A stretch of DNA of 64,000 bases from Anaerolineae bacterium (GTDB taxonomy: Bacteria; Chloroflexota; Anaerolineae; JACRMK01), in NCBI GenBank assembly GCA_038198935.1, contig JBBPZQ010000103.1, forward strand, positions 25,649 to 89,648, written 5' to 3'. Shown one piece after another: positions 14,713 to 62,058 of the stretch. The notes beneath the pieces are model-generated. The model was not told where the DNA came from, ran no database searches, and was given only the letters and a program-made list of their open reading frames with translations. Every line of letters starts with the position of its first letter. The stretch's first letter is position 1. Position numbers and translations under genes: made by a program.

Positions 14713-14810
14713 CCCAGACCCTCTGCCGATTTATCGCTCCGAGCGGAGCGATAAATCGGCAGAGAGGTGAACTCCTCCCCTACAACGCGGGGGAGGGCTG
14801 GGGTGGGGTC
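14713..14810. repeat. intergenic nested palindromic element of the GC-rich family
   Basis: Perfect 21-bp IR CTCTGCCGATTTATCGCTCCG/CGGAGCGATAAATCGGCAGAG, then CTCCTCCCC-N8-GGGGGAGGG, flanked by CCCAGACCC...GGGGTGGGGTC. Confidence 0.65.
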
Positions 14811-14815
14811 GAAAT

Positions 14816-15085
14816 TTATTCTGCCACGCCCAACCAGAAGTGATTGGGCAGAATCGAACGCGCTTGCTTCAACATTACTTGAGGTATGTGCGCTGCCGCG
14901 ACGCTCTTGCCGCTGTTCGCTTTCAGATTGATCGTCGGCTGCGCGTCGCCGACGGTGCGCGGGTTCGCATAGCACAGGTTCGGCGGCTCGCCGTACTTCT
15001 CTTGGTAACGCTTGGCGGCGCGCTCGATCTTTTCCTCCAACGGCCGTTTCGGATCATCGTCAAACCAAAGCATCCCGATCTTCAT
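14816..15085 (-). CDS. hypothetical protein
   Basis: ORF starting MKIGMLWFDDDPKRP; no recognisable family. Confidence 0.35.
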   Translation of the reverse strand: MKIGMLWFDDDPKRPLEEKIERAAKRYQEKYGEPPNLCYANPRTVGDAQPTINLKANSGKSVAAAHIPQVMLKQARSILPNHFWLGVAE

Positions 15086-15485
15086 AGTGAAAATCCTCCT
15101 GCCCCACAATTTTAAATTCACGGGCAGGGCGCGAGTAAGTTGCCATGGGGCTCGGCGGGTTGAGGTACGCGCCCTGAACAGGCTGCTGGTACTGCGTGCT
15201 TTGCACGTACTGCGGCGCAGCGTATGGCTGCGGTTGAATGACCATGATGCGCGGCGCTTCTTCGCGCGGCGCGGGTTCGGAGCGAGTGAGGGGCTGTGCG
15301 TAGCGCGTGGTCTCGCGCGAGCGCAATGTCAGCCACAGCACGACAGCCGTCATCGGCATGGAGGCGACGACGCCGATCACAGAGCCGACGATCACCGCCA
15401 TCGCTTGGTCGCTGAGTCGCTGACCAATCAGAACGGCGAGCGTGATGCTGAACGCCAACACGCCGAAGGCAATCAATCTGTTCAT
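15060..15485 (-). CDS. hypothetical membrane protein (2 predicted TM helices, Pro/Gln-rich C-terminus)
   Basis: 141-aa ORF with hydrophobic N-terminal segments. Confidence 0.4.
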   Translation of the reverse strand: MNRLIAFGVLAFSITLAVLIGQRLSDQAMAVIVGSVIGVVASMPMTAVVLWLTLRSRETTRYAQPLTRSEPAPREEAPRIMVIQPQPYAAPQYVQSTQYQQPVQGAYLNPPSPMATYSRPAREFKIVGQEDFHYEDRDALV

Positions 15486-15510
15486 GTGTCGCTCCTGTGG
15501 AGTACGCGAT

Positions 15511-23499: not shown

Positions 23500-25737
23500 T
23501 TAGCTTCGCGGTCCGCGGTCGCCGCCGCCACGGAATGGCGGACGTCCGCCACGATCTCCGCCGCGGTCGCCACCACCACGATAGCCGCCACCGTCACGTC
23601 CACCGCCAGAGCGCCCGCCACTGCTCGGCTTGCGGTCGGCATCACGCGCTTGCTCCGCCGTCCAGCCCGCCAGTACTGCCTGGCGCGACAAACGCACCTT
23701 GCCGGCCGGATCAATGTCAATCACCATCACCGTCAACTCGTCGCCGAGCTTCACGATGTCCTCGACGCGGTTCACGCGATAGTCGGCTAACTGCGAGATG
23801 TGTACCATGCCGTCCAGCCCGGGCAGAATCTCCACGAACGCGCCAAAGTCGGCGACGCGCGTGACCTTGCCCGTGTAAATGTCGCCGATCTTCGCGTCTT
23901 CGGTCATGGCGCGAATCTTCGCCTCGGCGGCCGCAGCACCCGCGCCGTCGGGCGACGAGATGAACACCGAGCCGTCGTCCTCCACGTCAATCTTCACCTT
24001 GAACTCTTCGATCATCGCGCGAATCGTCTTGCCGCCAGGCCCGATGACCTTGCCGATCTTCTCCGGATCAATCTTGACGACGGTCACGCGCGGCGCGTAC
24101 TGACTCATCTCTGCGCGCGGCTGGTTGATCGCCGCCAGCATCTTGTCCATGATGAACATGCGGCCCTCGCGCGCCTGCGCCAATGCTTGCGTCATGATGT
24201 CGGCACGCAATCCTTTGATCTTCATGTCCATCTGCAACGCGGTGATGCCCTTCGCGGTGCCCGCGACCTTGAAGTCCATATCGCCGAGCGCGTCTTCCAT
24301 GCCCTGAATGTCGGACAGCACGGCGTACTTGCCGTCGTCGCGCGTGACGAGTCCCATGGCGATGCCAGCGACAGGCGCTTTGATCTTCACGCCCGCGTCC
24401 ATGAGCGCCAGCGTGCTCGAGCACACCGACCCCATCGAGGTCGAGCCGTTCGACGAGAGCACTTCGGACACGACGCGCACGGTGTACGGAAAGTCTTGCT
24501 CGTCAGGAATCACATTGCGCAGTGCAGTCTCCGCCAGCGCGCCGTGGCCGATCTCGCGGCGGCGCGGTCCCCGCATCGGATACGCTTCGCCCGTGCTGAA
24601 CGGCGGGAAGTTGTAATGATGGATGTAGCGTTTCGATTCTTCGGGGCGCAGTCCGTCCAAGGATTGCTCTTCGCCCACGGTGCCGAGTGTGGCGATGGAC
24701 AGCACTTGCGTCTGGCCGCGCGTGAACAAGCCCGAACCGTGCGCACGCGGCGAGAGGCCGACCTCAGAGCTGATGGGGCGAATCTCTGTCAGGCCGCGTC
24801 CATCAGGGCGAATGCCCTTGTCGAGGATCGCATTACGGACTTCGGTCTTCATCGCCGCGTCGAAACCCGCTTTGACTTCGGCCGGGTCCAGATCGGACAG
24901 CGACGCTTTCAGGTTGTCTTCAATGGTGTCGAGCGCGGACTCGCGCGCTTCTTTCGAGAGCGATTGCGAGAGCACATCGGTGATGCGCGTGCCGAGTTTC
25001 GCGACGACGGCGTCATGCGCGTCGCTCTTCGCGGCGGCGGGGTAGCTCATCTTCGGCTTGCCCATCTCTTTGGCCATCTGGTTCTGCAACACGATGACAT
25101 TTTGGATCGCCTGGTGTCCGCTGTTGAGCGCATTCAGCATCACATCTTCGGGCACTTCGTTCGCGCCCGCTTCGACCATCAGGATCGCTTCGCTCGTGCC
25201 CGCCAAACGCAGGTCGAGTTGCGACTTTTCCATCTGGTCGGCGGTCGGGTTCATCACAAAAGCGCCGTCAATCATGCCGACGCGCACCGCGCCGATGGGG
25301 CCATAGAACGGGATACTGCTGATCATCAATGCGGCGGACGCGCCGATAATGGCGGGGATGTCGAGATAGTTTTGTACGTCGTAAGAGATGGTCGTGGCGA
25401 CGACTTGCACGTCGTTGCGGAAATCTTTGGGGAAGAGGGGCCGCAGCGGGCGGTCTATCAGACGGGCGACCAGGATCGCGGCTTCGCTCGGTCGGCCCTC
25501 GCGGCGGAAGAATGAGCCGGGGATGCGGCCTGCCGCGTAGAGCCTCTCTTCAAATTCGACCGACAGCGGGAAGAAATCAATGTCGGGACGCGCGCTTTTG
25601 CTGGCAGTGGCTGTGACGAGCACGACCGTGTCGCCGATGCGCACCGTCACCGCGCCGCCGGCCAGCTGTGCCAGCTTGCCCGTCGAGATAACAACGTCTT
25701 GTTCGCCAAGTTTGGCGGTATAAACTTTTTCGTCCAT
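23500..25737 (-). CDS. pnp: polyribonucleotide nucleotidyltransferase (PNPase) with Arg/Gly-rich C-terminal tail
   Basis: 745 aa; two RNase PH domains, KH and S1 domains, plus about 50 aa of RGG-type tail. Confidence 0.95.
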
Positions 25738-25856: not shown

Positions 25857-25908
25857 GATCCAACCTTTGCTCTCTCCCTTGTGAAACGGGGGAGGGTGGG
25901 GGTTGGAT
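25857..25908. repeat. GC-rich palindromic element / stem-loop in the pnp 5' leader
   Basis: GATCCAACC-TTTG-CTCTCTCCC-ttgtgaaac-GGGGGAGGG-TGGG-GGTTGGAT. Confidence 0.55.
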
Positions 25909-43086: not shown

Positions 43087-43107
43087 GAATACGTCTCCAG
43101 TGAACAA

Positions 43108-47571: not shown

Positions 47572-47584
47572 GCAGACTCCAGCA

Positions 47585-49829: not shown

Positions 49830-49941
49830 TTGACATCTCCATCATCGGATGTTATATTGTGTTCGAGCGGTCTCGTAAGTCCTGGTGTCACTGGCTCCAC
49901 ATTTGGGAGTCCCACTCCGTCCAAACGGTCTTCAGTGATCG

Positions 49942-50581: not shown

Positions 50582-50639
50582 TAGAGCATCCGTGCTGCAA
50601 TGTCATATGGACGACGCAGTGTCTTAAGAGAGCACTCAC

Positions 50640-50686
50640 TGGATTGCCGCTAATGGCGACGAAGGCGGTGGGCAATAGACACCCAC
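50640..50686 (-). pseudogene. degenerate duplicate of the arcC 5' end (encodes LPTAFVAISGNP)
   Basis: About 45 bp with 41 identities to 49793..49838 (LPTAVVAIGGNS). Confidence 0.55.
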
Positions 50687-50694
50687 CTGGTTTT

Positions 50695-53361
50695 TCAAAG
50701 CAATGCTGGTTGTGCAATCACCACCACATCGGCAAATTCGGTTGCTTGCAGTGCTTCGTATTCTGCTTGCTTGACCTTGATGTACTTCCATTCCGTGCCC
50801 GTCAGCCGCGTGGCGTTCTCCGCCCAGAGCGTGGCCGCGCGGTCTTTGTTTGCCACGTCCACATCCTCACGCCCTTTGGTCTCTATCAGGTAATTCGTAC
50901 CCTGTTCGGCCACAGCCACGAAGTCAGGCTCATAGTAGCGCAAGTTGTTGTTGGCGTCGGTGTATTCGATGGCGAAGCCAAATTGCTCAGGCAGCTTGGC
51001 GAAGGCCGCAACGTCGGGCGCGTTGTGCAGGAACTTGGCGAATGATTTTTCAAACTCGTTGCCACACGGCACGAGGTTGAACACGCACTTGCGCGAGTCG
51101 AACGTCGGGCGTGAATACGGAAACGGCGGCGTCACCGATAGTTTCCGACCCGCATCCAAGAGTTGCGGTTGCAGTTCTTGCACGACGAGCGGACGCAGCA
51201 CACGCACAAACTCTCGCACCGTGACGAACTGAACCACTTCGGAACTGATGGCTTTGATGAGCGCGGGGTCGTCCAAGTTGACGCGCTCACCAAAGGCGTA
51301 CACCTCCAAGAACTCGCGGACTTTCGGCACGAGCGCGGCGAACTGCGACGGCAGTTTTACATCTTGTGCGATGCGCTTGGCGTAGTAGGAGATGACCTCT
51401 TGCGAAGTTTGTACGTCGGGCAGTTTGTAGTCGCGCTCGACAATCTTTTGCAGCGTGATGAAGTCGTAGCCTTCATAGTGGAACTGCTGAATATCCGCCT
51501 GCTCGGACTTGCGCGGCAGCTTGGGTGCGCGTATCGCGGACACGTCTAGCGCGACAATCTCGTCGGCTAAGGTGCGCTTGCGCGTCAGTATCGGGCTGAG
51601 GACGGGCAGCGCGATGTCTTTGTCTAGCTTGTCTGGGTCGGGCGCGATGGTGACGATGGTGAGTTTGTCTTTGCCGACTTCAAATGTGTCTAATTTGATG
51701 TCCTCGTCTTTTTCGAGTTGCTCGACAAACTCGATGAATGCCTTATTGCCGATGACGTCCACGCGCTCGGTGTAGGCTGTAGCGAAGCCGCGAAACATGA
51801 GCCGCAAGCCGCGCCCGATGGTTTGTTCGGGCAAGATGTTGGCCTTCGATGAGTAAGGTCGCAAACCCACCACCACTGTTACGTTCTGCACGTCCCAGCC
51901 TTCGCGCAGCATCAACACGCTGACAATCGCATTGATGGGACTGTGCAGGTCGTCCACTTCGCGGGCGACGGTGCGCGCTTTGTCGAGGTCGCGCTTCGAC
52001 ACTTCGCCTTTGCGGTCGGTGTGGATGACGAGCAATTGGTCGCCGCCGAACTCGGATGGGTACTTGGTGCGCAGGTAGTCGCCCACGTCCTCGGCTTCGT
52101 CGGTGGTGTTCATCATCACGAACAACAGCGGCTTGCGCTTGAGTTGTGCGAGTTGTTCGCGGTATTCGCGCCAGCGTTCCACGCCTGCCGTGAGGTATGC
52201 CTTGTATTTGGTGCTCGTAACAGACGAAGGAGTTTCACGGATGCCCGTCGTGATGCCTTTCGTTGGACGCTTGACGATGCCATCAATAATGGCTTGCTTG
52301 AGCGGGTAATCGTAAATCGTCCAGGTGAACAGGCTGCCCATGCTGTAACGCGGCGTGGCGGAGAAGTCGAGTTGGGCAGCGACCCCCACCCCAACCCTCC
52401 CCCGTTCGCCAACTGCGCGAACAGGGGAGGGAGTTTGCTCCCCTTCCCCTGTCCGTGCTTTTTCGGACGGGGGAAGGGGTAGGGGGATGGGGGTCAGGCT
52501 CGCGTGCAACTGGCGGATACTCTTGTTCCATTCGCTTTCTTCGTCGTGGGTGTGGTGCGCCTCGTCGTTGACGACCAACAATCGCCCGCCGCGTTTGATG
52601 ATGCGCGTATCGAAGTCCGCAATCTCCATTGGTTGTGCGGGCGGCTTCGCGCCAAGCACCGCCGTCATGATGTCGGGTTCGTCGCCGTCGCCGTTGTCTC
52701 GTTCGTAAAATTGTTGGATGTTGGTCAGGTATAACGCGCCGAGCGAGTGTGCGCGTTCGCCATCGCCGCGCATGTAGCAATCGAAGTCCCAGTGGATTTT
52801 CAGTTCGGGCGGGATGAGCGGGTCAACCTTGAAGATTCTGCCGCTGGCAAAATCGGCCTTCAATCGCTCGAAGACAATCACGTTGGGAGCGATGACGAGA
52901 AACGTCGTGGCGTAATCGTCGGCATTTTCCAACACGGCATTGAAGTATTGCCACACGATCGCCAGCGACATGATTTTCGTTTTGCCGCTGCCCGTCGCCA
53001 TCTTGATGCAGTAGCGCGCGAACTCGTCGTATTGCAAGAGCCGCAAGTCTTTGTTCGAGCCTGCGTATTGCTCGACCAAATCCTTGTGACGGCGCACGCG
53101 CGCGACTTCGTACAGATAAATCAGCGTCTCGATGGCGAACTTCTGCGAGTCGTGATAGGTGAAGGCGCGGCCATTGGGCAGGCGATGGTCGGTCTTGAAC
53201 CAATGATTGAGCAGGGCGCGTGTCGTCGCGGTGACGCCTTTGTACTTGTCAGCGCGCCAGGCGTCAACGGCTTTGCGGATGGCGGGCACGCACGGCGCGG
53301 TCTTGAGGCGTGGCTCCAGTAGCGAGAGTTGGCTATCAGGTTTGCGAGCGCGGCGGGGCAT
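50695..53361 (-). CDS. res: Type III restriction enzyme Res subunit (helicase-like)
   Basis: 888 aa; helicase motif I TGSGKT, motif II VVNDEAHH, Type III Res C-terminal region. Contains an in-frame GC-rich palindromic insert. Confidence 0.85.
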   Translation of the reverse strand: MPRRARKPDSQLSLLEPRLKTAPCVPAIRKAVDAWRADKYKGVTATTRALLNHWFKTDHRLPNGRAFTYHDSQKFAIETLIYLYEVARVRRHKDLVEQYAGSNKDLRLLQYDEFARYCIKMATGSGKTKIMSLAIVWQYFNAVLENADDYATTFLVIAPNVIVFERLKADFASGRIFKVDPLIPPELKIHWDFDCYMRGDGERAHSLGALYLTNIQQFYERDNGDGDEPDIMTAVLGAKPPAQPMEIADFDTRIIKRGGRLLVVNDEAHHTHDEESEWNKSIRQLHASLTPIPLPLPPSEKARTGEGEQTPSPVRAVGERGRVGVGVAAQLDFSATPRYSMGSLFTWTIYDYPLKQAIIDGIVKRPTKGITTGIRETPSSVTSTKYKAYLTAGVERWREYREQLAQLKRKPLLFVMMNTTDEAEDVGDYLRTKYPSEFGGDQLLVIHTDRKGEVSKRDLDKARTVAREVDDLHSPINAIVSVLMLREGWDVQNVTVVVGLRPYSSKANILPEQTIGRGLRLMFRGFATAYTERVDVIGNKAFIEFVEQLEKDEDIKLDTFEVGKDKLTIVTIAPDPDKLDKDIALPVLSPILTRKRTLADEIVALDVSAIRAPKLPRKSEQADIQQFHYEGYDFITLQKIVERDYKLPDVQTSQEVISYYAKRIAQDVKLPSQFAALVPKVREFLEVYAFGERVNLDDPALIKAISSEVVQFVTVREFVRVLRPLVVQELQPQLLDAGRKLSVTPPFPYSRPTFDSRKCVFNLVPCGNEFEKSFAKFLHNAPDVAAFAKLPEQFGFAIEYTDANNNLRYYEPDFVAVAEQGTNYLIETKGREDVDVANKDRAATLWAENATRLTGTEWKYIKVKQAEYEALQATEFADVVVIAQPALL
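52381..52495. repeat. GC-rich nested palindromic element inserted in-frame in res
   Basis: gacccccaccccaaccctcccccg...ggggtagggggatgggggtc outer arms plus two inner hairpins; encodes ...PLPLPPSEKARTGEGEQTPSPVRAVGERGRVGVGV.... Confidence 0.7.
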
Positions 53362-53433
53362 AAAATTTTCTTACCTTGTTATTGACATACCCAAACGATG
53401 TGACTATACTGTGCCTGCAAACAAAAGTATTGC

Positions 53434-53715
53434 AGCCAGTCGCTTGTAGGTGAACGCCGGCTCCAAAGTCCCAGCACTGCTCAGTGCAGGGATGCCGTGC
53501 GCTGGGTAAACCAGCCTAGCCTACAGGGGGCTGGCGGCGATAGATGCGCCACCGACCACCGAAACCCGTACCGAGTGTATGGTGAACCTTCCGTCGGAAG
53601 GAGTTAGGGGGCAGGGCGTGTCCACTGTGTTGGAATAGCCAGTCGGCTGTAGGTGAAAGTCGGCTTCATGCCGTGCGCTCGACATCCGAGCCTAGCCTAC
53701 AGAGGGCTGGCTTTT
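53434..53715 (+). repeat. two tandem structured repeat units (GCCAGTCGSYTGTAGGTGAA...GCCTAGCCTACAGRGGGCTGG), the second ending in hairpin + TTTTTC
   Basis: Unit 1 about 53434..53545, unit 2 about 53640..53715; long-range CTGTAGG/CCTACAG and GCCAG/CTGGC pairing. Confidence 0.5.
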
Positions 53716-54479
53716 TCTATGTCAAACGGATTGTCGCGGCTATACCAGTTCTTCGGATACATGGCGCTGTCATAGCGGTCCACCAGTAAACTTACTTTGT
53801 CCTCGACGTAGCGATAGTAACGCATCTCCCTCCTCACAAAAGCGCGATAGACTGCCCAGTTCATGTAATCAATCACTTGCAGACACGGCTCGCCTACCGC
53901 ATTCTGAGGTAAGACGACAATCTCTGTTTCCACCTTGGTCTCCCAACGGGTTTCAAAATTGGCGACGCCGCGTTGAATCGCTTGCTCCAATTGGGCTTGA
54001 CGCTTGCGCGAGCCACGTTGGGCAAAGTAGATCAGATTGCGCGCATAGCGATGCAAGACATTCTCGAAAAGCAAACTGATCAAGTAATCATAGAACGTGC
54101 TTTCATTAGCATGAAACGAATTGCGAAAAACGCGCTCAACTTTGCGCGCAACGACGAACTGGGCTTTGAAATCCTGCGCGCGCAACATTTTGAACACGGC
54201 CTGGCGAACTTCGGGCGTATCATCCTTCGCATGAAACGCTGCGTATGTTTTGCCGATGGAAGGAATATCTCGCAAATACTCGTCGGCGGCAAGCTCGGCG
54301 TGCAATTCCGCCAGCGCGCGGCGAATCGGGCTCGCGTCGCTCGTCTCGATGAATCCCAAAATCAATATAGGCGAGCAGCCCTCCTGCCCGACAATCAGGT
54401 TGCCGTGGCGGTCGTAGAACGTCGGGTCGCCTGACTCGTCCACAAAATACCAACACGACCCCTCTGCCGCTTCCTTCAT
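53697..54479 (-). CDS. DUF3800-family protein
   Basis: 260 aa; N-terminal [12 protein letters not shown] motif typical of DUF3800; start overlaps the mod stop by 4 nt. Confidence 0.6.
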
Positions 54480-56584
54480 TCGTCCACCTTCACCCGCACC
54501 GTCTTCGTCGTGTCGTTCCCCAGAATGTCAATCACCTTGACGACAATCGTGTACTCGCCCGCCGCGTCGTAGCTGTGCGTCGTCGTCTTCTGCAAGTCGC
54601 GGTCTTTGCGCGTGCGATAGGTCTGCCATTCGTTGTGGAACGTGTCGCCCTTGTTGTCCCAATCCACCGCCCAATAGTCAATCCACTGCGACCAATGCTT
54701 GATGGCGCGCTGCACGTCGGCGGGCACGTCGTCGGGCGGGGTGACGAAATCGGTTAGGGTGAGAGTGACCGTGCGCGTAGAGACGGCTCGCCGAGCCGTC
54801 TCTACCTTCACATCCACCGCGAGCGCGGCGAGTTCAAAAAATTTGATGTCGCCTTGCTCGACGGCCTTCTTCTCCAACACTTCGCGCGGGATACGCACGA
54901 AGCGCACGGTGAGGTTGGCGAGCGCGGCTTGCTGCTTGGCGACTTCGTTCAATTCGAAGGCGAAGTCCCAACCGAGCACGTCCACGCCATTCGTCGTGGG
55001 CGCATCCGCGCCGGTGCCGACCGCGCGCTTGAACTCGGTGACGATATTGGTCACGTCGCCGACCGCGATGGGCGCGTCCACCACGCCGACATGCACCATG
55101 CGCCCCGCCTTCAAACCGTGCAGCCATGTGTAGCCCGTGATGGGGCGCGCGTTGTACAGTTTGAGAATGAAGTCGGTGTAAGCGCGATGCACGGCGTGGA
55201 GCTCTCCCTCACCCCTAACCCCTCTCCCGCTGGGCGAGGGGGACGCACTGCTCCCTTCTCCCTGCGGGAGAAGGGCTGGGGATGAGGGAGAGCTGCCGAA
55301 TTCATCCTTTACCCACAACTGCCGCTCGTACTTGCCCAAGTTTTGCACGACGAACGGGCGCACGTTGTCAATCGAGAGCAGACGCTTGCGCGTGGTGTGG
55401 ATGGCGAAGCGCCCCAGGTCGCAGGTAATCCAACGGCGGTTCAACTTCTCCGCGACGGCGGCGGTCGTGCCGCTGCCGCAGAAGCAATCGAGCACGAGGT
55501 CGCCTTCGTTCGATGACGCTTTGAGGATGCGTTCGAGTAAGGCTTCGGGTTTTTGTGTGGGGTAATCCACTCGTTCTAAAGCAGTCGGTGACAAAATGGG
55601 AATATCCATCCAAAGAGTGGACGCCGAAACTCCAGGTCTCTCGTCGAGATAGTATTTGATATAAGGTTGTCCTGGGCCGCTGAAATACAGTTTTCCAGTC
55701 TTATACATTTCTTCCATTTTGTCTCTTGTATAAGCCCAATAACGACCTTCTGGCGGGTAAACGCCATGAAACTCATATCGCGTATCGCCACCAGGTTTTG
55801 CAGCGGTGGGAGTTACAAGTCTGTATCGCCTGCCTTGCTCATCAATCTTGTTATACTGTTGTGCAATCTGCTGGTCGCTAAATGGAACGTACTGAGTTCG
55901 CCACTGAAAGTTTTGTGATTTCACGTAGAAAAAAATAGTGTCGTGCACCACATCATAGTGACGAGCGCCCTGTTTAGTATCGCCGTGTGCAGTAGTTCTT
56001 TTCCAAACGACCTCGTTCACAAAATTCTGTAAGCCAAACACCTCATCCATTACAGCCTTTGCATAGTGTGACACATGGTAATCTAAATGCACATAGATAC
56101 TCCCATCCTCCGTCAGCAACTCGCGCAACAACACGACCGTCTCGTAAAACCATTGCAAGTACGAATCGAGCCCGCGGCCCCACGTATCGCGGTAGGCTTT
56201 CATCTCGATGACGCTTGGCTCTTTGGTGAAGGATTCGATGTCGTCGGACTCTCCCTCACCCCCGTCCCCTCTCCCGCTGGGCGAGGGGGGCACGGTCGCC
56301 GTGAACGAAAAGTCCGCGCCGACGTTGAACGGCGGGTCAATGTAAATCAAGTTCACCTTGCCCGCGAACTCGTCGAGCAGCGACGGCAGCACATATTTCT
56401 TGTCGCCCCAAATCAAGCGGTTGCGCCATTCGGAATCGCGTCCCGCGCTGAACATATCGAGCGCGCGCTGGCGTTGCTGCGCGGACTCGTTCACCGTCTC
56501 GACAGTCTGAAACGGCAGCGCCACGCGCAACGGGGCGACGCGCTTGCCGTCTTTGTATTTGCCATCCCACATCAGTTCGGTCAT
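54476..56584 (-). CDS. mod: Type III restriction-modification methyltransferase Mod subunit (N6-adenine)
   Basis: 702 aa; IYIDPPF motif [13 protein letters not shown] motif I, Type III target-recognition domain between them. Carries two in-frame GC-rich inserts. Confidence 0.85.
55199..55295. repeat. GC-rich nested palindromic element inserted in-frame in mod
   Basis: gagctctccctcacccc...ggggatgagggagagctg outer arms; inner CCCTTCTCCC-TGC-GGGAGAAGGG hairpin. Confidence 0.7.
56248..56290. repeat. half copy of the GC-rich element in mod
   Basis: actctccctcacccccgtcccctctcccgctgggcgagggggg: left outer arm and first inner hairpin only. Confidence 0.55.
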
Positions 56585-56666
56585 GGTGTGCCTCGTGTCA
56601 AAGACCTCACAGGCTTGCCCTGAGCACAGCGAAGGGTCTGAAGACCTGTGAGGTCTAGTGCCCTTC

Positions 56667-56852
<186 letters not shown>

Positions 56853-57098
56853 TCACGCAGCCATCTGCTCCAAGCGCACCGCAGGCCTGTCGGCATGCGT
56901 CGGTAAGCGCAGTGCGTTGGCGGGCAGCGTTACGACGGCAACCGTGTTGCCGAGCATGTCAAAGAATTCGACACTGTAGCCTGTCTCGCGTGCAGCGACA
57001 TTGTGACGCTCGACCACCGTTCCGACATCGCCAACGCGCAAGTGGTATTCGGGGACATCAAGCACGAGCACGACATCACTATAGAATTGAAAGTCCAA
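56853..57098 (-). CDS. small DUF4926-like protein
   Basis: 81 aa (MDFQFYSDVVLVLDVPEYHLRVGDVGTVVE...); lies exactly between the arcB stop and the arcB 3' fragment. Confidence 0.5.
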   Translation of the reverse strand: MDFQFYSDVVLVLDVPEYHLRVGDVGTVVERHNVAARETGYSVEFFDMLGNTVAVVTLPANALRLPTHADRPAVRLEQMAA

Positions 57099-57099
57099 T

Positions 57100-58071
57100 T
57101 TACTTCTTTGCCTTGCGCCTCACTGCCTTCTTCTCACTCGCCAACTTCACGCCCCCCAGCAGCCACGCGAGGATCGCTTTCTGCGCGTGCAGGCGGTTCT
57201 CGGCTTGGTCGAACACAATCGAGTTGGGCGAGTCGGCCACCGCGTCGGTGATCTCTTCGCCGCGATGGGCGGGCAGGCAGTGCATGATGAGCGCGCGTGA
57301 CGGCGCACTCTGCATCAGCGTCGCATTCAATTGATAATCTTTGAACGCCTTGCGTCGCACCTCGTTCTCCGCTTCTTGGCCCATACTCGTCCACACGTCG
57401 GTATAGACGACATCGGCATTGCGCAGCGCGTCGTGCGGGTCGGTTGTCCAGCGCACACGCGCGCCGCTGTCTTCGGAAAATTCCATCGCGCGCGCCATCA
57501 CCTCTTTGCTCGGCTTGTATGCTTCGGGTGTCGCGACGGTGATGTGCAGTCCGACTTTGCTCGCGCCGAACAGCAAGCCGTTCGCCATGTTGTAGCCATC
57601 GCCGATGAACACGAGTTGTTTGTCGCGCACATCTTTGCCGAGCTGCTCGCGGATGGTGAGCAGGTCTGCCATTACCTGACACGGATGATCGTAATCGCTT
57701 AAGCCATTGATGACCGGCACGCTCGCGTACTGCGCCATCGTTTCCAGATCGCGGTGTCGGAACACGCGCGCCATGATGCCCTGCGTGTAGCGGCTGAGCA
57801 CGCGCGCAATGTCGGGCACAGACTCGCGCTTGCCCATGCCGATCTCCGCGTCGGACAAATACAGTCCGCGCCCGCCGAGCTGATCCATGCCGACCTCGAA
57901 CGAGACGCGCGTGCGCAGCGACGGCTTCTGAAAATACAGCGCGAGCGTTTGTCCCGCGAGAATCGGTTTGTTACCGGCGCGCTTCCATTCGCGCTTCAAC
58001 TTTTCCGCGAGCTGCAGCAGGCCTTCGATTTCAGCAGGTGTGAGATCGGCGAGCGTGAGCAAGTGACGCAT
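57100..58071 (-). CDS. arcB: ornithine carbamoyltransferase
   Basis: Start MRHLLTLADL with AAGGAG RBS; STRTR, HCLP, DVVYTDVWTSMG motifs. Confidence 0.9.
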   Translation of the reverse strand: MRHLLTLADLTPAEIEGLLQLAEKLKREWKRAGNKPILAGQTLALYFQKPSLRTRVSFEVGMDQLGGRGLYLSDAEIGMGKRESVPDIARVLSRYTQGIMARVFRHRDLETMAQYASVPVINGLSDYDHPCQVMADLLTIREQLGKDVRDKQLVFIGDGYNMANGLLFGASKVGLHITVATPEAYKPSKEVMARAMEFSEDSGARVRWTTDPHDALRNADVVYTDVWTSMGQEAENEVRRKAFKDYQLNATLMQSAPSRALIMHCLPAHRGEEITDAVADSPNSIVFDQAENRLHAQKAILAWLLGGVKLASEKKAVRRKAKK

Positions 58072-58150
58072 AGGACTCCTTCGGAGAGACGGCGGACGAC
58101 GGACGGCAGACGGCTGATGTCTTGCCTCCATCGTCCGCCGTCTGCCGTCG

Positions 58151-59584
58151 TCAGTAGGCACCATCCGCGAGCAGCACGCTCGGAACGGTGCGCAGCATGA
58201 TTTTCAGATCGAGCGCGAGCGACCAGTTCTCGATGTAGAACAAGTCGAGCATGACCATCTCGTCGAACGTGAGCAGCGAGCGCCCGCTCACTTGCCACAA
58301 GCCGCTCATGCCCGGCGCGACTTCGAGCCGCTTCTTGTGCCACTCTTCGTATTGCGCGACTTCGCGCGGCAAGGGCGGACGCGGACCGACCAAACTCATT
58401 TCGCCGCGCAGCACGTTGAGCACCTGCGGCAGTTCGTCGAGCGAGGTGCGGCGGAAGAAGCGGCCCATGCGCGTCAGGCGCGGATCGTTTTTGATCTTGA
58501 ACAGGGGCCCCGTCGCTTCGTTCATCTCCAACAATTTTTCCACTTCCTCGTCCGCGCCCTCGCGCATCGAGCGGAACTTGAAGCAGGTGAACAGTTTACC
58601 GCCGCGTCCCACGCGTGTCTGTCGGAACAGAATGGGACCGGGCGAATCGAGTTTAAGCGCGACGGCAAACGGCAAAAATATCAGGGGCCCAAAAATCGCC
58701 AACACGATCACGCTGAGCACGATATCAATCGCGCGCTTGAGCGCGTAGTTCCAACCGCTGATGCTCACGTCGCGCACGCTGATCAGCGGGATGCCGTTGA
58801 TGTCGTCCACCGCGACGCGGCTGAGCGACATTTCGTACAGGTCGGGCACGATCTTCACGCGCGCGCCGTGCCGCTCGCATTCGTCCAGCATCGCCAAGAC
58901 TTGTTGATGGTGATCGGCCGGCAAGGCGATCACCACTTCGTCGGGCTGATGCGCGTGCAGCACCTCGCGCAAGTGCCGCGTGTCGCCGAGCGCGGGGAAG
59001 CGGCCGATGTTCACTTGCTGCGTCGGGTCGTCGTCGAGGAAGCCGATCACGCGATAGCCGAGTTCGGGCCGCGCGACGATGCTGCGCATCAACGTGCGAC
59101 TGCGCTCGCCCGCGCCGATGATCAGCAGCCGATCAACGGCGATGCCGCGCTTGCGCAAGCGCGCCAGCACGACGCCGAGCACGAGGCGGAACAGCGCGAG
59201 CGTAGCCACGATGAACGCGAGCGCGAACGCGAACATCAAGCGCGAGTACGAATACGGACGCAGATAGAAGAACACGACGATCATTGCCGCGACGCCGACC
59301 AGCGTGCCGTTGAAGATGGTCACGGTGCGGTCGAGCCACGATGCGCCGCGCTGCGAGGTATAGACGCCTTCGACCTTGTAAATGACGAGCAGCGTCGCGG
59401 TGAGGAAAACGGCGATGGGCACGTACTCGCCAAACGGGACGAAGTTGAATTCGTCCACAGGGCGAACCCACTCGCCGATGTAGCGCGCCCAGTACGCCAG
59501 CGCGAAGCCGACGTTAATCAGCAGCGCGTCAGCAATGACGAGCGCGAGCGATTGGTAGCGGTGGAGTCGTGCGAGCATGGTCAT
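58151..59584 (-). CDS. exopolysaccharide polyprenyl-phosphate glycosyl-1-phosphate transferase (WbaP/EpsB-type bacterial sugar transferase)
   Basis: 477 aa; 4-5 N-terminal TM helices, C-terminal sugar-transferase domain (KRAIDIVLS...PGP(I/L)F.Q.RVG..G..F...KFR(S/T)M). Confidence 0.85.
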   Translation of the reverse strand: MTMLARLHRYQSLALVIADALLINVGFALAYWARYIGEWVRPVDEFNFVPFGEYVPIAVFLTATLLVIYKVEGVYTSQRGASWLDRTVTIFNGTLVGVAAMIVVFFYLRPYSYSRLMFAFALAFIVATLALFRLVLGVVLARLRKRGIAVDRLLIIGAGERSRTLMRSIVARPELGYRVIGFLDDDPTQQVNIGRFPALGDTRHLREVLHAHQPDEVVIALPADHHQQVLAMLDECERHGARVKIVPDLYEMSLSRVAVDDINGIPLISVRDVSISGWNYALKRAIDIVLSVIVLAIFGPLIFLPFAVALKLDSPGPILFRQTRVGRGGKLFTCFKFRSMREGADEEVEKLLEMNEATGPLFKIKNDPRLTRMGRFFRRTSLDELPQVLNVLRGEMSLVGPRPPLPREVAQYEEWHKKRLEVAPGMSGLWQVSGRSLLTFDEMVMLDLFYIENWSLALDLKIMLRTVPSVLLADGAY

Positions 59585-59660
59585 GTGCGAGGACGAGAAC
59601 GGGCAGACGGCTGGCCGAGTGCAAGCGCGAGCTGATGCCGACCCGTCACTCGCGTACCGT

Positions 59661-60791
59661 TCACGTCAACACCTCGGAGTACACCTGCGCCGTCTGCCGC
59701 GCGGCTTCGTGCCAACTGAACTTGGCGGCTTGGCGTAGGCTGCGCTCGCGCATCTGCGTTCGCAGCGCAGTATCGTGCAGCGCATGTTCAATCGCCTCAC
59801 TCAACGCGAGCGTGTCGTCGGGCGCGATAGTGAGCGCGGCGTCGCCCGCCACTTCGGGTAGCGACGAGACGTTGGAGGTGATGGCGGGCGTGCCACATGC
59901 CATTGCTTCGAGCACGGGCAAGCCGAAGCCCTCGTACAGCGACGGGAACACGAACAGGTCGGCGGCGTTGTACCACAACGCCAATTCTGCTTGCGGCACG
60001 TAGCCCGTGAAGATCACGTCGCTCTGAGCGCCGCTTTGCTCGACGGCCGCAAACACGTCGTCGTAGCCCCAACCCTTCGCGCCGGCAATCACCAGTTTGG
60101 GTTTGTCGCTGCCGTTGCGCCTCAATGCAGCGTACGCGCGCACGAGTTGCGCGACGTTCTTGCGCGGCTCCAATGTGCCGAGATACAAAATGAAATGTGA
60201 CGGCAGCCCTTTCGCCGCGCGGAACTGCTCGACCTGCGCGCGGCTGATCGGATGGAACTCGTCGTCCACGCCACAATAAATGACGCGCACAAGCTCGGCG
60301 GGCACGCCGCAAAATTTCAGCACGTCGTCTTTGCTGCTCTGCGAGATGACCACGATGCGCGCGGCATGTTGCGCGGAGTAGCGGGTGATGAGACGCAAGT
60401 AGTGGCGTTGAAAACGCGGAAAGCGTTCGGGCATGCGCACGAAGCTCATGTCGTAAATCGTGAGCACGACGGGGCAGCGCGCGACGACGGGCCGCGCGAA
60501 TGCGAGCGCGTGCAGCAGGTCGAGTTTGTCCGTGAATGTGCTAATGGGCAGCACGCTCTGCTCCCACACAATGCGCCCAAAAGGGGTGCGCGTGGGGAGG
60601 TGCGTGAAGTGCAGGTGCATTGCGGGATGCGGCGCACGCATCGCGCGCTCGTTCAGGTACACGTCGTAGCGATGCTTTGGCGCGACCTGCGGCAGATTGA
60701 GGAGCAGACGATGGATGTAGTGATGAATGCCCGCGCCGCGATACGAGGCGGAGAGGTTGAGCAACTGCGCGTTCAGTCCGATGCGGCTCAT
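59661..60791 (-). CDS. glycosyltransferase family 4
   Basis: 376 aa GT4 fold (EGFGLPVLEAMACGTPAI). Confidence 0.8.
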   Translation of the reverse strand: MSRIGLNAQLLNLSASYRGAGIHHYIHRLLLNLPQVAPKHRYDVYLNERAMRAPHPAMHLHFTHLPTRTPFGRIVWEQSVLPISTFTDKLDLLHALAFARPVVARCPVVLTIYDMSFVRMPERFPRFQRHYLRLITRYSAQHAARIVVISQSSKDDVLKFCGVPAELVRVIYCGVDDEFHPISRAQVEQFRAAKGLPSHFILYLGTLEPRKNVAQLVRAYAALRRNGSDKPKLVIAGAKGWGYDDVFAAVEQSGAQSDVIFTGYVPQAELALWYNAADLFVFPSLYEGFGLPVLEAMACGTPAITSNVSSLPEVAGDAALTIAPDDTLALSEAIEHALHDTALRTQMRERSLRQAAKFSWHEAARQTAQVYSEVLT

Positions 60792-60888
60792 AGTGTGCTG
60801 CGGCGATTATACCATTCTTACGTGCGCAGCGGCGAAGCCATCGCGGCACGTCACAGTCTCGCTAGAGCGCCTCGCGCTTGCTTCGCCC

Positions 60889-62058
60889 CTACACCATTTG
60901 TTGATATACGCCGACCGTTTGTTCCGCGATACTTGCTTGCGTGAAATTTTGTAAGACACGCGTGCGCCCACGCTCCGCCAATGCGCAGCGCAATGATTCG
61001 TCGCGCATGAGTTGCACGAGACATGCTTGCAAGCCGCTGACATCATCTTCGTGGAAGATCAGCCCGGCATCGCCGATGGTGTTTGGAATCTCGCCCGTGT
61101 CCGAGCCGATCACCGGCACGCCGCACGCCATCGCTTCGATCAGCACGCGCCCGAACTGCTCGACCCAGTTGTGCGCGCGGCGCGAGGGAAGCACGAACAC
61201 GTCGAGCGCGCGATAGAAGTCCGGCATCTGCGTTGACGCGATCTGCGTCTCAAAGTGCACACGCTCGGCAATGGTGAGTTCGTGCGCGAGTCGCTGCAAG
61301 TGTGCCAGTGCGGGTCCTGAACCCGCGAGTCGCAATTGCCAATCTGCGTCGCCGAGTTGCGCAACGGCGCGCAGCAGTGTGTCAATGCCTTTCTCGCGCG
61401 TGAAGCGGCCCGCATAGCCGACGGTAAAAGAACCCCCACCCCAACCCTCCCCCGTCGAAGTGTGCGACCGGGAAGGGGGTCTGGCCTCCGCCCCTGCGAA
61501 GCGGGGGAGGTTGGGTGGGGGTTGAAAAATTTCCGGATCAACGCCGAACTGCGGGATGACGCGCACCACGCCGCGATAGCCTTTCGCGCGCAAGACGTTC
61601 ACCGCATCGGCGTTGCCCGCGATAGCGTGCGCGCAATGATGGAACGTGAAGCGTTGAAAGTAACTGAACGGGAACGGATAACGCCGCCGCAAATTCTGCC
61701 ACGTAAAGAACAGCGGACGCGCTCCGACCTGAAGGGCATGACGCACCGCATGGAACGTCACCAAATCCCACGGCTCTTCGTCCACATGCACGATGTCGGG
61801 TCGCAGTTCGCGCAAGATGCGCGCCAACTCTGGATAGAAATGAATGTGAAAGTGGCCATTGAAGCGCATCGGCGAGACGAGCAGCCGATAGCCGCGCGTG
61901 TATTTTTTTTCGAGCGTGCGCGTGCCGCTGGGGTCTTTCCATGCGGGCGGCACGACGACGGTGAGCGCAACGCCGCGCGCCGCGATCTCTTCCAGCTTGC
62001 GCTGATACGCGCCGACGACGCACGCTTTGGAGAGCAGCAAGACTTTCATAGACGCCAT
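60889..62058 (-). CDS. glycosyltransferase family 4 (with in-frame GC-rich insert)
   Basis: Start MASMKVLLLS; EQFGRVLIEAMACGVPVIGSD; insert encodes PSRSHTSTGEGWGGGS. Confidence 0.8.
   Translation of the reverse strand: MASMKVLLLSKACVVGAYQRKLEEIAARGVALTVVVPPAWKDPSGTRTLEKKYTRGYRLLVSPMRFNGHFHIHFYPELARILRELRPDIVHVDEEPWDLVTFHAVRHALQVGARPLFFTWQNLRRRYPFPFSYFQRFTFHHCAHAIAGNADAVNVLRAKGYRGVVRVIPQFGVDPEIFQPPPNLPRFAGAEARPPSRSHTSTGEGWGGGSFTVGYAGRFTREKGIDTLLRAVAQLGDADWQLRLAGSGPALAHLQRLAHELTIAERVHFETQIASTQMPDFYRALDVFVLPSRRAHNWVEQFGRVLIEAMACGVPVIGSDTGEIPNTIGDAGLIFHEDDVSGLQACLVQLMRDESLRCALAERGRTRVLQNFTQASIAEQTVGVYQQMV
61431..61524. repeat. GC-rich nested palindromic element inserted in-frame in the glycosyltransferase
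   Basis: aacccccaccccaaccctcccccg...cgggggaggttgggtgggggttg; left arm nearly identical to the res copy at 52381. Confidence 0.7.

What the first reader, a model, noticed from the sequence alone, without database searches (positions are those of the whole stretch)
14713..61524. GC-rich nested palindromic elements inserted in-frame into protein-coding genes (RPE-like behaviour)
- Copies of a CCCCACCCCAACCCTCCCCC…GGGGGAGGG…-type composite palindrome occur:
  - intergenically at 14713..14810 and 25857..25908;
  - inside coding regions without breaking the frame at 52381..52495 (res), 55199..55295 and a half copy at 56248..56290 (mod), and 61431..61524 (a GT4 glycosyltransferase).
- The coding copies add 25-40 residue Pro/Gly/Ser/Glu-rich segments (e.g. 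...[12 protein letters not shown]..., ...GEGWGGGS...).
- The res and glycosyltransferase copies share an almost identical 23-nt left arm, indicating recent mobility.
- This mirrors Rickettsia palindromic elements / Neisseria Correia-like MITEs that create new peptide segments, here in a high-GC genome. It is possibly an undescribed element family.
Basis: seen in the sequence. Interest (0 to 1): 0.6.

Follow-up and report, generated by a model that had tools for sequence, protein, structure and literature searches.

The report
Triplex-motif DNA repeats inside protein genes
The flagged "nested palindromes" are real copies of an already described bacterial repeat (the BoxC / intrastrand-triplex motif known from E. 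coli), here sitting in-frame inside three genes of a Chloroflexi-type bacterium, where they are translated as floppy proline/glycine loops.

Summary

**What the elements are.** They resolve into nine units of one design:
- a C/T block;
- a loop;
- the complementary G/A block;
- a 1-3 nt loop;
- a second G/A block that mirrors the first.

This is the purine-motif intrastrand triplex motif published as BoxC / PIT / TMECO (Holder et al. 2015). The "nested palindromes" are inverted pairs of such units. One mod unit nearly matches an E. coli BoxC arm.

**Not chance.** The window holds nine units. Shuffled copies give a mean of 0.25.

**Where the coding copies sit.** They lie in variable linkers that most res, mod and GT4 homologues lack. 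In the GT4 model the insert is the only low-confidence stretch.

**Age and turnover.**
- The res pair is shared with a related genome.
- That genome has mod site 1 empty and a different palindrome at mod site 2.
- Across four comparisons the three blocks are 91-98% identical and the loops 57-74%.

**The shared arm.** The 18-mer inside the "23-nt shared arm" occurs in at least 120 genome stretches from many phyla. It shows a family consensus, not recent mobility.

**Mobility.** No target duplication or transposase was found.

**Verdict.** Known family in a new host phylum and an unusual coding location. Moderate interest.

The parts
14773..14808 (+). Single triplex-motif unit, intergenic: TCCTCCCC / tacaacgcg / GGGGAGGG / ctg / GGGTGGGG
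   Evidence: stem 8, 0 triad mismatches..
14710..14764 (.). Remnant outer C-rich arm (14710-14723) that pairs with the G-rich end of the unit above. It is followed by an unrelated perfect 21-bp-arm palindrome (14721-14764) that occupies the place of the second unit.
   Evidence: I11, 100% complementary; fold; the palindrome sequence occurs nowhere else in the window.
25872..25902 (+). Single triplex-motif unit within the imperfect palindrome 25857-25908, about 120-170 nt upstream of the pnp start codon
   Evidence: stem 7, 0 triad mismatches; I3; PNPase gene 23500-25737, minus strand.
52383..52431 (-). Unit 1 of the inverted pair inside res: CCCTCCCCT / 19-nt loop with its own mini-hairpin / GGGGGAGGG / ttg / GGGTGGGGG
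   Evidence: Shared with the relative L001.
52440..52493 (+). Unit 2 of the inverted pair inside res: CCCCTTCCCCT / 18-nt loop / GGGGGAAGGGG / tag / GGGGATGGGGG
   Evidence: stem 11, 0 triad mismatches..
55206..55241 (-). Unit 1 of the inverted pair inside mod (site 2): CCCCTCGCCC / agc / GGGAGAGGGG / tta / GGGGTGAGGG. It is like TMECO type A.
   Evidence: also matches the TMECO pattern when loop 2 is relaxed. (E. coli BoxC arm)..
55253..55288 (+). Unit 2 of the inverted pair inside mod (site 2): CCCTTCTCCC / tgc / GGGAGAAGGG / ctg / GGGATGAGGG
   Evidence: perfect hairpin and perfect mirror block, 10 triads.
56253..56288 (-). It encodes [12 protein letters not shown].
   Evidence: 38/42 nt identical to the site-2 unit. 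The site is empty in the relative genome.
61434..61477 (-). Unit 1 of the inverted pair inside the GT4 glycosyltransferase gene
   Evidence: Shared with L127.
61485..61521 (+). Unit 2 of the inverted pair inside the GT4 glycosyltransferase gene
   Evidence: The insert is residues 176-207 of the protein, which is the only low-pLDDT stretch of the model.
50695..53361 (-). Host gene: type III restriction enzyme Res subunit. The insert lies in the loop between helicase motif II (DEAH) and the TATP motif.
54476..56584 (-). Host gene: type III Mod DNA methyltransferase, with inserts in two variable linkers
60889..62058 (-). Host gene: GT4-family glycosyltransferase. The longest ORF extends to 62196; the homologue alignment supports the start near 62049-62058. 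The insert lies in the linker between the two Rossmann domains.

Best explanation
**Identity (shown).** The flagged sequences are BoxC / PIT / TMECO-type intrastrand-triplex-motif repeats.
- Each unit has three blocks on one strand: a C/T block; after a loop, its Watson-Crick complement (a G/A block); and after a 1-3 nt loop, a second G/A block.
- The second G/A block is the mirror image of the first. It could lie on the hairpin as a third strand through G.G:C, A.A:T and T.A:T triads.

**In this genome (shown).**
- The window comes from a bacterium whose nearest homologues are named Anaerolineae or Caldilineales, within Chloroflexi.
- Seven of the nine units lie inside genes, in poorly conserved linkers of Res, Mod and a GT4 glycosyltransferase.
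- There they are read through in frame.

**Why they are tolerated (inferred).**
- C-tract and G-tract arms contain few stop codons.
- They encode flexible Pro-rich then Gly-rich peptide that sits in surface loops.

**Maintained at the DNA level (shown).**
- In orthologous or co-sited copies the three blocks stay nearly invariant while loops, spacers and even the flanking codons diverge.
- Base changes and single-base deletions in the stem are compensated.

**How they spread (inferred, the weakest step).**
- Copying is non-transposase and structure- or microhomology-driven, by template switching or gap repair from another unit, often a nearby one.
- This would give replacement-type junctions without target duplications.
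- It would favour Pro/Gly/Glu-rich linker DNA that already offers CCC and GAG/GGA microhomology.
For: **Three-block anatomy**
- All six copies resolve into nine units with 0 triad mismatches. Stems are 7-11 nt and loop 2 is 1-3 nt.
- Shuffled windows give a mean of 0.25 units, against nine observed.

**The mirror rule is specific**
- The test used 184 hairpins with an asymmetric purine block, none containing the 18-mer used to fetch the loci.
- 63 have a perfect mirror third block and 12 have a perfect direct-repeat block.
- Allowing one mismatch, 76 are observed. Permuted flanks give a mean of 46 and a maximum of 55.

**Polarity**
- 247 hairpins with the C-block 5' of the G-block, against 18 of the opposite polarity.

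**Match to the published family**
- The TMECO pattern is CCCTCNCCC N3-6 GGGNGAGGG N3 GGGNGAGGG, with type A loop TTA and known inverted pairs (PMC4666352).
- Two mod units match this pattern once loop 2 is relaxed.
- The E. coli lldD-trmL spacer carries CCCTCACCCCTAACCCTCTCCC; the window has CCCTCACCCCTAACCCCTCTCCC.

**Inserts rather than ancestral sequence**
- Alignments of 120 homologues each show that most lack the segments.
- Mod site 1 is empty in the related genome GCA_030157145.1 and in P0122. Mod site 2 is empty in P0122. In the relative, a different palindrome sits at site 2 between near-identical flanks.
- The GT4 site is a short Pro linker in P0242.

**Disordered loop**
- The GT4 model has mean pLDDT 93.3. 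The only low-confidence stretch is about residues 181-207, and the insert is residues 176-207.

**Few stop codons**
- Stop-free frames: res 5 of 6, GT4 6 of 6. Random 97-115 nt segments reach 5 or more in 5-9% of cases.

**DNA-level maintenance**
- Identity by class: third block 65/66, G block 63/66, C block 60/66, loop 2 12/21, loop 1 54/73, spacer 16/26, flanks 345/486.
- One compensatory stem change is seen: GTCCG/CGGAC became GTCGG/CCGAC. The indels are frame-preserving.

**Local copying**
- The mod site-1 unit is 38/42 identical to the site-2 unit, including loop 1.
- The co-sited unit in P0133 has different loops.

**Same behaviour elsewhere**
- In-frame units occur in RecF, UvrA, Lhr, PurL, MFS transporters, a P-type ATPase, HsdM, MmeI-type enzymes and urease alpha from other phyla.
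Against: - Triplex formation was not measured here. Holder et al. saw it only for single-stranded oligonucleotides in vitro, not in duplex DNA or in vivo.
- Six of the nine units have a first loop of 9-19 nt, outside the 1-6 nt range used to define the published motif.
- The G-rich arm is also a canonical G-quadruplex motif, so the mirror symmetry could serve another structure.
- The proposed copying mechanism rests on two junctions and one intra-gene similarity. No intermediate or enzyme is identified.
- The block conservation in the two non-orthologous comparisons (P0133, P0201) could reflect a shared family consensus rather than conservation in place.
- Flank identity is lowered by terminal alignment gaps.
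- Translation of the inserts is inferred from intact frames, not from protein data.
Confidence: 0.8

Rival explanations
1. REP/REPIN-type elements mobilised in trans by a single-copy HUH (Y1) transposase of the RAYT kind. The hairpin plus its 5' single-stranded extension would be the recognition module, and the inverted pair would be the mobile REPIN.
For: - Inverted doublets with a variable spacer.
- Conserved arms with variable loops.
- No target-site duplication.
- Strict strand polarity.
- REPs are known to occur inside genes (PMC3733652).
Against: - None of the nine units carries a GTAG or CGTC tag.
- ORF clustering found no recurrent transposase-like family across the 120 fetched loci. 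None was among the 13 window ORFs scanned with Pfam.
- Holder et al. found no transposase or integrase near TMECO sites.
- A RAYT model does not explain the mirror relation between the second and third blocks.
- A single-copy RAYT would easily be missed in the small fraction of each genome that was examined.
Confidence: 0.12
2. Classical MITEs (Correia or RPE-like): deletion derivatives of an insertion sequence, moved by a DDE transposase that recognises terminal inverted repeats.
For: - The overall palindromic shape and size of about 95-115 bp.
- In-frame occurrence like RPE.
- In some metagenome contigs the units are embedded in a composite of about 130 bp with its own terminal inverted repeat GTAAGCGTTCACC.
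Against: - No target-site duplication at mod site 1 or site 2. The junctions look like replacements.
- Interiors of the res, mod and GT4 elements are unrelated.
- Single units exist on their own.
- The same arms occur across many phyla without a shared parent IS.
Confidence: 0.04
3. Host-beneficial structural elements kept by selection where they lie. They could act as replication or recombination pause sites, or as instability hot-spots that let restriction-modification genes vary. On this view they are not selfish passengers.
For: - The three blocks are more conserved than the surrounding codons.
- Compensatory changes occur in the stem.
- Holder et al. link TMECO loci to local genomic instability.
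- Restriction-modification genes are 7 of about 19 distinct coding hosts seen.
Against: - Hosts are functionally miscellaneous, including urease, PurL, MFS transporters and GT4.
- Sites are empty in close relatives without obvious consequence.
- Earlier work reported no promoter, terminator or in vivo polymerase-blocking activity for PIT elements.
- The restriction-modification excess comes mainly from a scan seeded with the mod unit itself.
Confidence: 0.15
4. Not insertions at all: ancestral low-complexity Pro/Gly linkers whose DNA happens to be palindromic.
For: The sites are Pro-rich and acidic variable linkers in all homologues. P0242 has a (TCCCCCG)3 linker at the GT4 site.
Against: - The nearest relatives have different sequences or none between near-identical flanks.
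- The same DNA units occur intergenically in the window and in many phyla.
- Conservation follows DNA block boundaries, not codons.
Confidence: 0.02

Closest known systems
BoxC / PIT elements / TMECO intrastrand triplex motifs (Bachellier et al. 1990s; Hoyne & Maher 2000; Holder et al. 2015, PMC4666352)
   Same: - Same three-block design: a C/T block, the complementary G/A block, and a mirror G/A block after about 3 nt.
- Same preferred sequences, for example GGGAGAGGG TTA GGGTGAGGG.
- Same tendency to occur as inverted pairs.
- Stems conserved and loops variable.
- No transposase association.
- Wide phylogenetic spread.
- The E. coli arm CCCTCACCCCTAACCCTCTCCC differs from the window's mod arm by one base.
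   Different: - In E. coli K-12 all 23 copies are intergenic. Here 7 of 9 units are in-frame inside genes.
- The first loop is often 9-19 nt and carries its own small hairpin, against 3-6 nt in TMECO.
- The host is a Chloroflexi-type genome. "Chloroflexi" does not occur in the text of the 2015 survey.
- The second pair member has loop CTG, TAG or TTG rather than type B CCG.
Rickettsia palindromic elements (RPE; Ogata et al. 2000)
   Same: Palindromic repeats of about 100 bp found in-frame inside functional genes. They add surface-loop peptide segments without destroying the protein. This is my own knowledge, and the elements are cited in PMC3733652.
   Different: - The comparison below is from my own knowledge and was not tested here.
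- No sequence relationship to RPE.
- RPEs are AT-rich, confined to Rickettsia, and conserved along their whole length.
- The present units are GC-rich, defined by a three-block mirror rule, cross-phylum, and conserved only in the blocks.
REP / REPIN elements with RAYT transposases (Nunvar 2010; Bertels & Rainey 2011; Di Nocera 2013)
   Same: Short GC-rich hairpins, inverted doublets with a variable spacer, no target duplication, and occasional location inside genes.
   Different: No GTAG or CGTC tag and no associated RAYT seen. The units carry an additional mirror block that REPs lack.
Correia elements and other bacterial MITEs
   Same: Small non-coding palindromic repeats that can end up inside ORFs.
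   Different: MITEs have terminal inverted repeats derived from an IS, target-site duplications and a conserved interior. None of these is seen here.

Membership tests
Intrastrand triplex motif, purine class II (ITxF definition, Holder et al. 2015) | Three consecutive blocks on one strand: a pyrimidine block, its Watson-Crick purine complement, and a third block mirroring the second with G.G, A.A or T.A triads. Stem 6-15 nt with at most 1 mismatch. | tested here: met
   nine units, stems 7-11 nt, hairpin mismatches 0-1, triad mismatches 0; shuffles give a mean of 0.25; mirror beats direct arrangement, 63 to 12.
Intrastrand triplex motif, purine class II (ITxF definition, Holder et al. 2015) | Both loops 1-6 nt | tested here: inconclusive
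   loop 2 is 1-3 nt in all nine units. Loop 1 is 3 nt in three units (all in mod) and 9-19 nt in six.
Intrastrand triplex motif, purine class II (ITxF definition, Holder et al. 2015) | Forms a triplex as single-stranded DNA in vitro (CD/NMR) | not testable with these tools
   The folding tool models Watson-Crick pairs only. The single unit scores z = -0.24.
TMECO / BoxC (E. coli family) | Consensus CCCTCNCCC N3-6 GGGNGAGGG N3 GGGNGAGGG | tested here: inconclusive
   no strict match. Two minus-strand mod units (55206-55240 and 56253-56287) match when loop 2 may be 5 nt, which is equivalent to 10-nt blocks with a 3-nt loop.
TMECO / BoxC (E. coli family) | Direct sequence similarity to E. coli copies | tested here: met
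   36 nt at 89% identity to the lldD-trmL spacer of E. coli YJ4, which carries a type A plus type B pair.
TMECO / BoxC (E. coli family) | Intergenic location | tested here: not met
   Seven of nine units lie inside intact ORFs. In E. coli the motif is "always located intergenically".
Rickettsia palindromic elements | In-frame insertion in functional genes at structurally permissive loops | tested here: met
Rickettsia palindromic elements | Sequence homology to RPE families | not tested
   No RPE sequences were compared. From my own knowledge RPEs are AT-rich and unrelated in sequence.
REP / REPIN-RAYT | GTAG (or CGTC) tetranucleotide tag at one end of the hairpin | tested here: not met
   Sequences show none at the unit ends.
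REP / REPIN-RAYT | A RAYT (Y1 transposase) gene flanked by the repeats | tested here: inconclusive
   ORF clustering found no recurrent transposase-like family in 120 loci. None was among the 13 window ORFs scanned with Pfam. Only about 8 kb per genome was seen, and a RAYT is single-copy.
MITE (Correia-like) | Target-site duplication and an IS-derived terminal inverted repeat with a conserved interior | tested here: not met
   filled versus empty junctions show replacement, with no duplication; the interiors are unrelated.

The most novel reading that the evidence does not exclude
The triplex-motif units may be actively maintained and copied by a sequence- or structure-specific process shared across bacterial phyla.
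- The process could be an unrecognised trans-acting enzyme or a universal repair or replication pathway that uses the folded unit as template.
- It would keep the third, non-Watson-Crick block intact even inside coding DNA.
- Their frequent presence in restriction-modification genes would then reflect a role as built-in instability or recombination sites.
Probability: 0.15. Interest if true: 0.8.

Novelty: new member of a known kind. Interest (0 to 1): 0.42.

Why it matters
**What is known and what is added**
- BoxC / triplex-motif repeats have been known for 30 years without an agreed function or mode of spread.
- They were described as strictly intergenic in E. coli.
- Here the same units sit in frame inside housekeeping and restriction-modification genes of Chloroflexi and several other phyla.

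**Two handles this gives**
- Coding copies provide a built-in neutral reference, the surrounding codons. Against it, the three blocks, including the one with no Watson-Crick partner, look constrained.
- Filled, empty and replaced sites between related genomes expose the insertion junctions. These show no target duplication.

**Practical point**
- The units explain the many "PSPxGRGxGGEG"-type low-complexity segments in predicted proteins from these phyla.
- Such segments can be masked when aligning or modelling these proteins.

Tried and rejected
**RNA families**
- Rfam at gathering thresholds found only an unrelated DUF3800-III RNA.
- A permissive scan of 50000-62500 found only far-sub-threshold miRNA-hairpin noise.

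**Search for a mobilising gene**
- All-against-all clustering of ORFs from 120 loci gave only an ABC-F ATPase (an orthologous Microcoleus locus) and sensor proteins. No transposase appeared.
- A search for long elements bounded by a left and a right arm gave only chance pairs.

**Collections and look-ups that gave little**
- Plasmid collection: no match. BLAST's low-complexity filter probably masks these queries.
- E. coli collection: only 14 weak hits for the same reason, but one was enough for a direct comparison.
- Looking up the window's own Res protein to name the source assembly failed.

**Literature**
- Searches for the sequence itself returned only G-quadruplex chemistry papers.
- Searches on Chloroflexi, REPIN and MITE found nothing specific.

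**Interpretations considered and dropped**
- The 24-nt arm shared by res and GT4 as evidence of recent transposition.
- The P-loop codons at 28184-28204 as another copy. They are an NB-ARC Walker A motif.
- Relaxed units with a stem of 6. They are at noise level: 4 extra in the window, against 0-8 per shuffle.

Full report
**1. Observation**

G-rich palindromic sequence.
- The window is about 59% GC.
- The four coding copies lie in uninterrupted ORFs. These are a type III restriction Res subunit (50695-53361, minus strand, 888 aa), the cognate Mod methyltransferase (54476-56584, minus, 702 aa) and a GT4 glycosyltransferase (60889-62196, minus). Pfam supports all three identities.
- The names that sources give to the nearest homologues point to Chloroflexi: Anaerolineae, Anaerolineales and Caldilineales.

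**2. Anatomy**

Each copy breaks down into one or two units of a single design. A unit consists of:
- a C/T block of 7-11 nt;
- a loop;
- the Watson-Crick complementary G/A block;
- a loop of 1-3 nt;
- a second G/A block that mirrors the first.

In the mirror block, G lies opposite G, and A or T lies opposite A.

There are nine units, and none has a triad mismatch:

| Location | Units | Coordinates and strand |
|---|---|---|
| Intergenic | single | 14773-14808 (+) |
| Intergenic, upstream of pnp | single | 25872-25902 (+) |
| res | inverted pair | 52383-52431 (-) and 52440-52493 (+) |
| mod site 2 | inverted pair | 55206-55241 (-) and 55253-55288 (+) |
| mod site 1 | single | 56253-56288 (-) |
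| GT4 | inverted pair | 61434-61477 (-) and 61485-61521 (+) |

- An inverted pair explains the "nested composite palindrome". The two third blocks pair with each other as an outer stem around the two unit hairpins (folds, z = -4.0 to -7.9).
- The 14713-14810 copy is one unit plus a remnant outer arm. An unrelated perfect 21-bp palindrome sits where the second unit would be.

**3. Statistics**

- Full units with a stem of at least 7: nine in the window. Twenty dinucleotide shuffles gave a mean of 0.25 and a maximum of 2.
- Perfect C/T to G/A hairpins: four in the window and none in 30 shuffles. None has the opposite (G-block first) polarity.
- In 845 kb of fetched loci the polarity counts are 247 against 18.
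- The mirror rule was tested on 184 hairpins with an asymmetric purine block, excluding those that contain the 18-mer used to fetch the loci. Of these, 63 have a perfect mirror third block and 12 a perfect direct-repeat block.
- Allowing one mismatch, 76 hairpins qualify. Permuting the flanks gives a mean of 46 and a maximum of 55.

**4. Coding context**

Alignments of 120 homologues for each protein show that every insert lies in a short, variable linker.
- Res: between helicase motif II (DEAH) and the TATP motif. Minimal homologues of 851 aa have only about four residues there.
- Mod: in two linkers.
- GT4: between the two Rossmann domains.

Further points:
- Most homologues lack the inserts.
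- Some homologues carry other units of the same type (PSPxGRGxGGEG-like peptides). Others carry unrelated palindromes or heptamer repeats at the same places.
- An AlphaFold model of the GT4 protein has mean pLDDT 93.3. Its only low-confidence stretch is about residues 181-207, and the insert is residues 176-207.
- The elements are poor in stop codons. Stop-free frames are 5 of 6 for res and 6 of 6 for GT4. Random segments of the same length reach 5 or more in 5-9% of cases.

**5. History**

A related genome, GCA_030157145.1, gives three informative comparisons.
- Its Res gene is 89% identical in protein and carries the same pair. The stems are conserved and the loops diverged. One stem base pair changed on both sides (GTCCG/CGGAC to GTCGG/CCGAC). 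The indels sum to 3 nt. So this insertion predates the split.
- Its Mod gene is empty at site 1, reading CCC GAC AAT CCC GAA ACG, like other homologues.
- At Mod site 2, between near-identical flanks, it carries a different 63-nt palindrome built from GGATGAA heptamers. P0122 (81% identical) has neither element.

These comparisons lead to four points:
- The mod units were gained or exchanged after the split.
- The junctions look like replacements of about 12-15 nt. No target duplication is visible.
- The site-1 unit is 38/42 identical to the minus-strand unit of the site-2 pair 950 nt away, including the first loop. The co-sited unit in P0133 has different loops. This suggests local copying.
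- For GT4, P0267 (77% identical) shares the pair, whereas P0242 (75%) has a short (TCCCCCG)3 proline linker.

Identity by sequence class, summed over the four comparisons:

| Class | Identical / compared | Percent |
|---|---|---|
| Third (mirror) block | 65/66 | 98% |
| G block | 63/66 | 95% |
| C block | 60/66 | 91% |
| Loop 2 | 12/21 | 57% |
| Loop 1 | 54/73 | 74% |
| Spacer | 16/26 | 62% |
| Flanking coding DNA | 345/486 | 71% |

The flank figure is somewhat lowered by terminal alignment gaps.

**6. Distribution**

- The 18-mer CCCACCCCAACCCTCCCC lies inside the arm shared by res and GT4. It is the complement of a G block, a TT loop and a mirror block.
- By record titles, the hosts include Alpha-, Beta- and Gammaproteobacteria, Desulfobacterales and Geobacter relatives, Cyanobacteria, Chloroflexi (Dehalococcoidia, Aggregatilineales, Chloroflexus), Tepidisphaeraceae and Fimbriiglobus, Bacteroidales, Cytophagales and Pontibacter, Spirochaetes, Armatimonadota and Ignavibacteria.
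- Almost all hits have the same hairpin partner, and many are inverted pairs.
- The identical arm therefore reflects a family consensus, not a recent copy.
- In-frame coding copies are not special to this window. Pfam confirms units inside an MmeI-type methyltransferase, Lhr helicase, RecF, two MFS transporters, PurL, UvrA and a P-type ATPase.
- A metagenome scan with the mod unit found it in frame, as LPSPSGRGAGGEG, in HsdM, two MmeI-family enzymes, an N6/N4 methylase and urease alpha.
- The relative's 16-kb locus has a second coding pair in an Fe-S/CCG protein.

**7. Known family**

Holder et al. (NAR 2015, PMC4666352) describe exactly this design as the G/C-rich intrastrand triplex motif TMECO.
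- The published pattern is 5'-CCCTCNCCC N3-6 GGGNGAGGG N3 GGGNGAGGG-3'.
- It is identical with the BoxC repeats of the 1990s and with the PIT elements of Hoyne and Maher.
- They counted 3610 copies in 262 proteobacterial genomes and found the motif abundant in cyanobacteria.
- There are two loop types, TTA and CCG. Five inverted pairs occur in E. coli K-12.
- Stems are conserved and loops variable.
- The motif is always intergenic in E. coli.
- No transposase is associated with it.
- A triplex forms in vitro from single strands but was not detected in duplex DNA or in vivo.
- The loci are associated with local genomic instability.

An E. coli copy in the lldD-trmL spacer reads CCCTCACCCCTAACCCTCTCCC-tcag-GGAGAGGGG. 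This is one base different from the window's mod arm. No Rfam family matches the elements.

**8. How it most likely works**

- Shown: identity as triplex-motif units; in-frame residence in permissive linkers; gain and exchange between related genomes; DNA-level maintenance of all three blocks.
- Inferred: tolerance comes from stop-poor arms that encode flexible Pro-rich then Gly-rich loops.
- Inferred, and weakest: spread occurs by template switching or gap repair from another unit, using CCC and GAG/GGA microhomology in Pro/Glu/Gly-rich linker DNA.
- Rivals: a RAYT-like HUH mobiliser (no tag, no gene seen, but poorly sampled); a classical MITE (no duplication, no conserved interior); host-selected structural sites (block conservation and an excess of restriction-modification hosts, but miscellaneous hosts and empty sites in relatives); ancestral linkers (contradicted).

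**9. Verdict**

The Rickettsia-like reading of in-frame palindromic inserts is right as a description of behaviour. The "undescribed family" and "recent mobility" claims are not supported.

The window adds a new host phylum and, relative to the E. coli description, an unusual coding location to a known repeat class. Cross-phylum examples show that this coding location is general. Interest is moderate. The open questions are how these units are copied and why the non-Watson-Crick block is kept. Those questions are old, but coding copies make them more tractable.

Noticed in passing
window 40888-40962, 41772-41826, 43107-43161, 45966-46036, 47573-47650, 48829-48865, 58087-58143: Many intergenic spacers carry hairpins whose arms are tandem 7-8 nt repeats, for example AGTCCTG/CACTCAG, ATGCGTC, CACCAAGA, CAGTAGT/CTGGCGA and AGACGGC. 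They resemble the short tandemly repeated heptamers of cyanobacteria. This is a second palindromic repeat system, distinct from the triplex motifs.
   Followed up: partly
L123 7123-7185 (Mod gene of GCA_030157145.1): At exactly the position where the window's mod has the triplex-motif pair, the relative has an in-frame 63-nt hairpin built from GGATGAA heptamers (encoding RMKDEEKKQNDSSFMPQPSAF). The flanks are near-identical. So the same linker has accepted two different palindromic repeat types.
   Followed up: yes
window 35700-35746, inside the YjeF/Nnr gene 34618-36192 (-): G-rich heptamer repeats (TGGAGGG x2.4, then GGGATTT/GGGGATT x3.6) lie in frame inside the NAD(P)HX epimerase/dehydratase gene. 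They encode NPQIPNPKSHPPPS. The unit resembles the GGGGA(C/T)T quadruplex-forming repeats described in Nostoc (PMC4692102).
   Followed up: partly
window 49864-49984 (+) and 53697-54479 (-): A DUF3800-III RNA motif (Rfam RF02962, 55.8 bits, above the gathering score) lies about 4 kb from a DUF3800 protein gene that sits between mod and res.
   Followed up: no
window 14721-14764: A perfect 21-bp-arm palindrome with a 2-nt loop (CTCTGCCGATTTATCGCTCCG / CGGAGCGATAAATCGGCAGAG) takes the place of the second unit in the 14713-14810 element. Its sequence occurs nowhere else in the window.
   Followed up: partly
window 27863-30613 (+): An NB-ARC plus TPR STAND-type gene lies in a stretch of clearly lower GC (0.49 against about 0.59), followed by an AAA ATPase gene. 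It may have been acquired horizontally.
   Followed up: no
window res and mod; L097, L129/L138, L133, L136, L139: Restriction-modification enzymes (type III Res and Mod, HsdM, MmeI-family, N6/N4 methylase) account for 7 of about 19 distinct genes seen with in-frame triplex-motif units. DNA repair genes (RecF, UvrA, Lhr) also appear. Part of this excess comes from seeding one scan with the mod unit.
   Followed up: partly
L130 7440-7590 (-); also L132, L137, L140, L141, L145: In one set of metagenome samples the same unit is part of a composite repeat of about 130 bp. It consists of the terminal inverted repeat GTAAGCGTTCACC, one unit, a 25-nt spacer, an inverted unit and the matching terminal repeat. 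Copies occur on at least six contigs with unrelated left flanks. Here the two units face outward, the opposite of the arrangement in the window.
   Followed up: partly
L004, L007, L040, L044, L054, L076, L088, L089, L114, L120: In Microcoleus, Tychonema and an Oscillatoriales MAG, one unit sits at a recurrent site with conserved flanks. In L004 it lies about 65-90 nt downstream of an ABC-F ATPase gene, and that ATPase family recurs in 16 loci. Stems are identical, but the first loop differs in every genome. The stems were part of the search pattern, so only the loop variability is informative.
   Followed up: partly
845 kb of fetched loci plus the window: There is a strong polarity rule. The C/T block is 5' of the G/A block in 247 hairpins, against 18 of the opposite order. 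This follows from the three-block design but has no other explanation offered here.
   Followed up: partly
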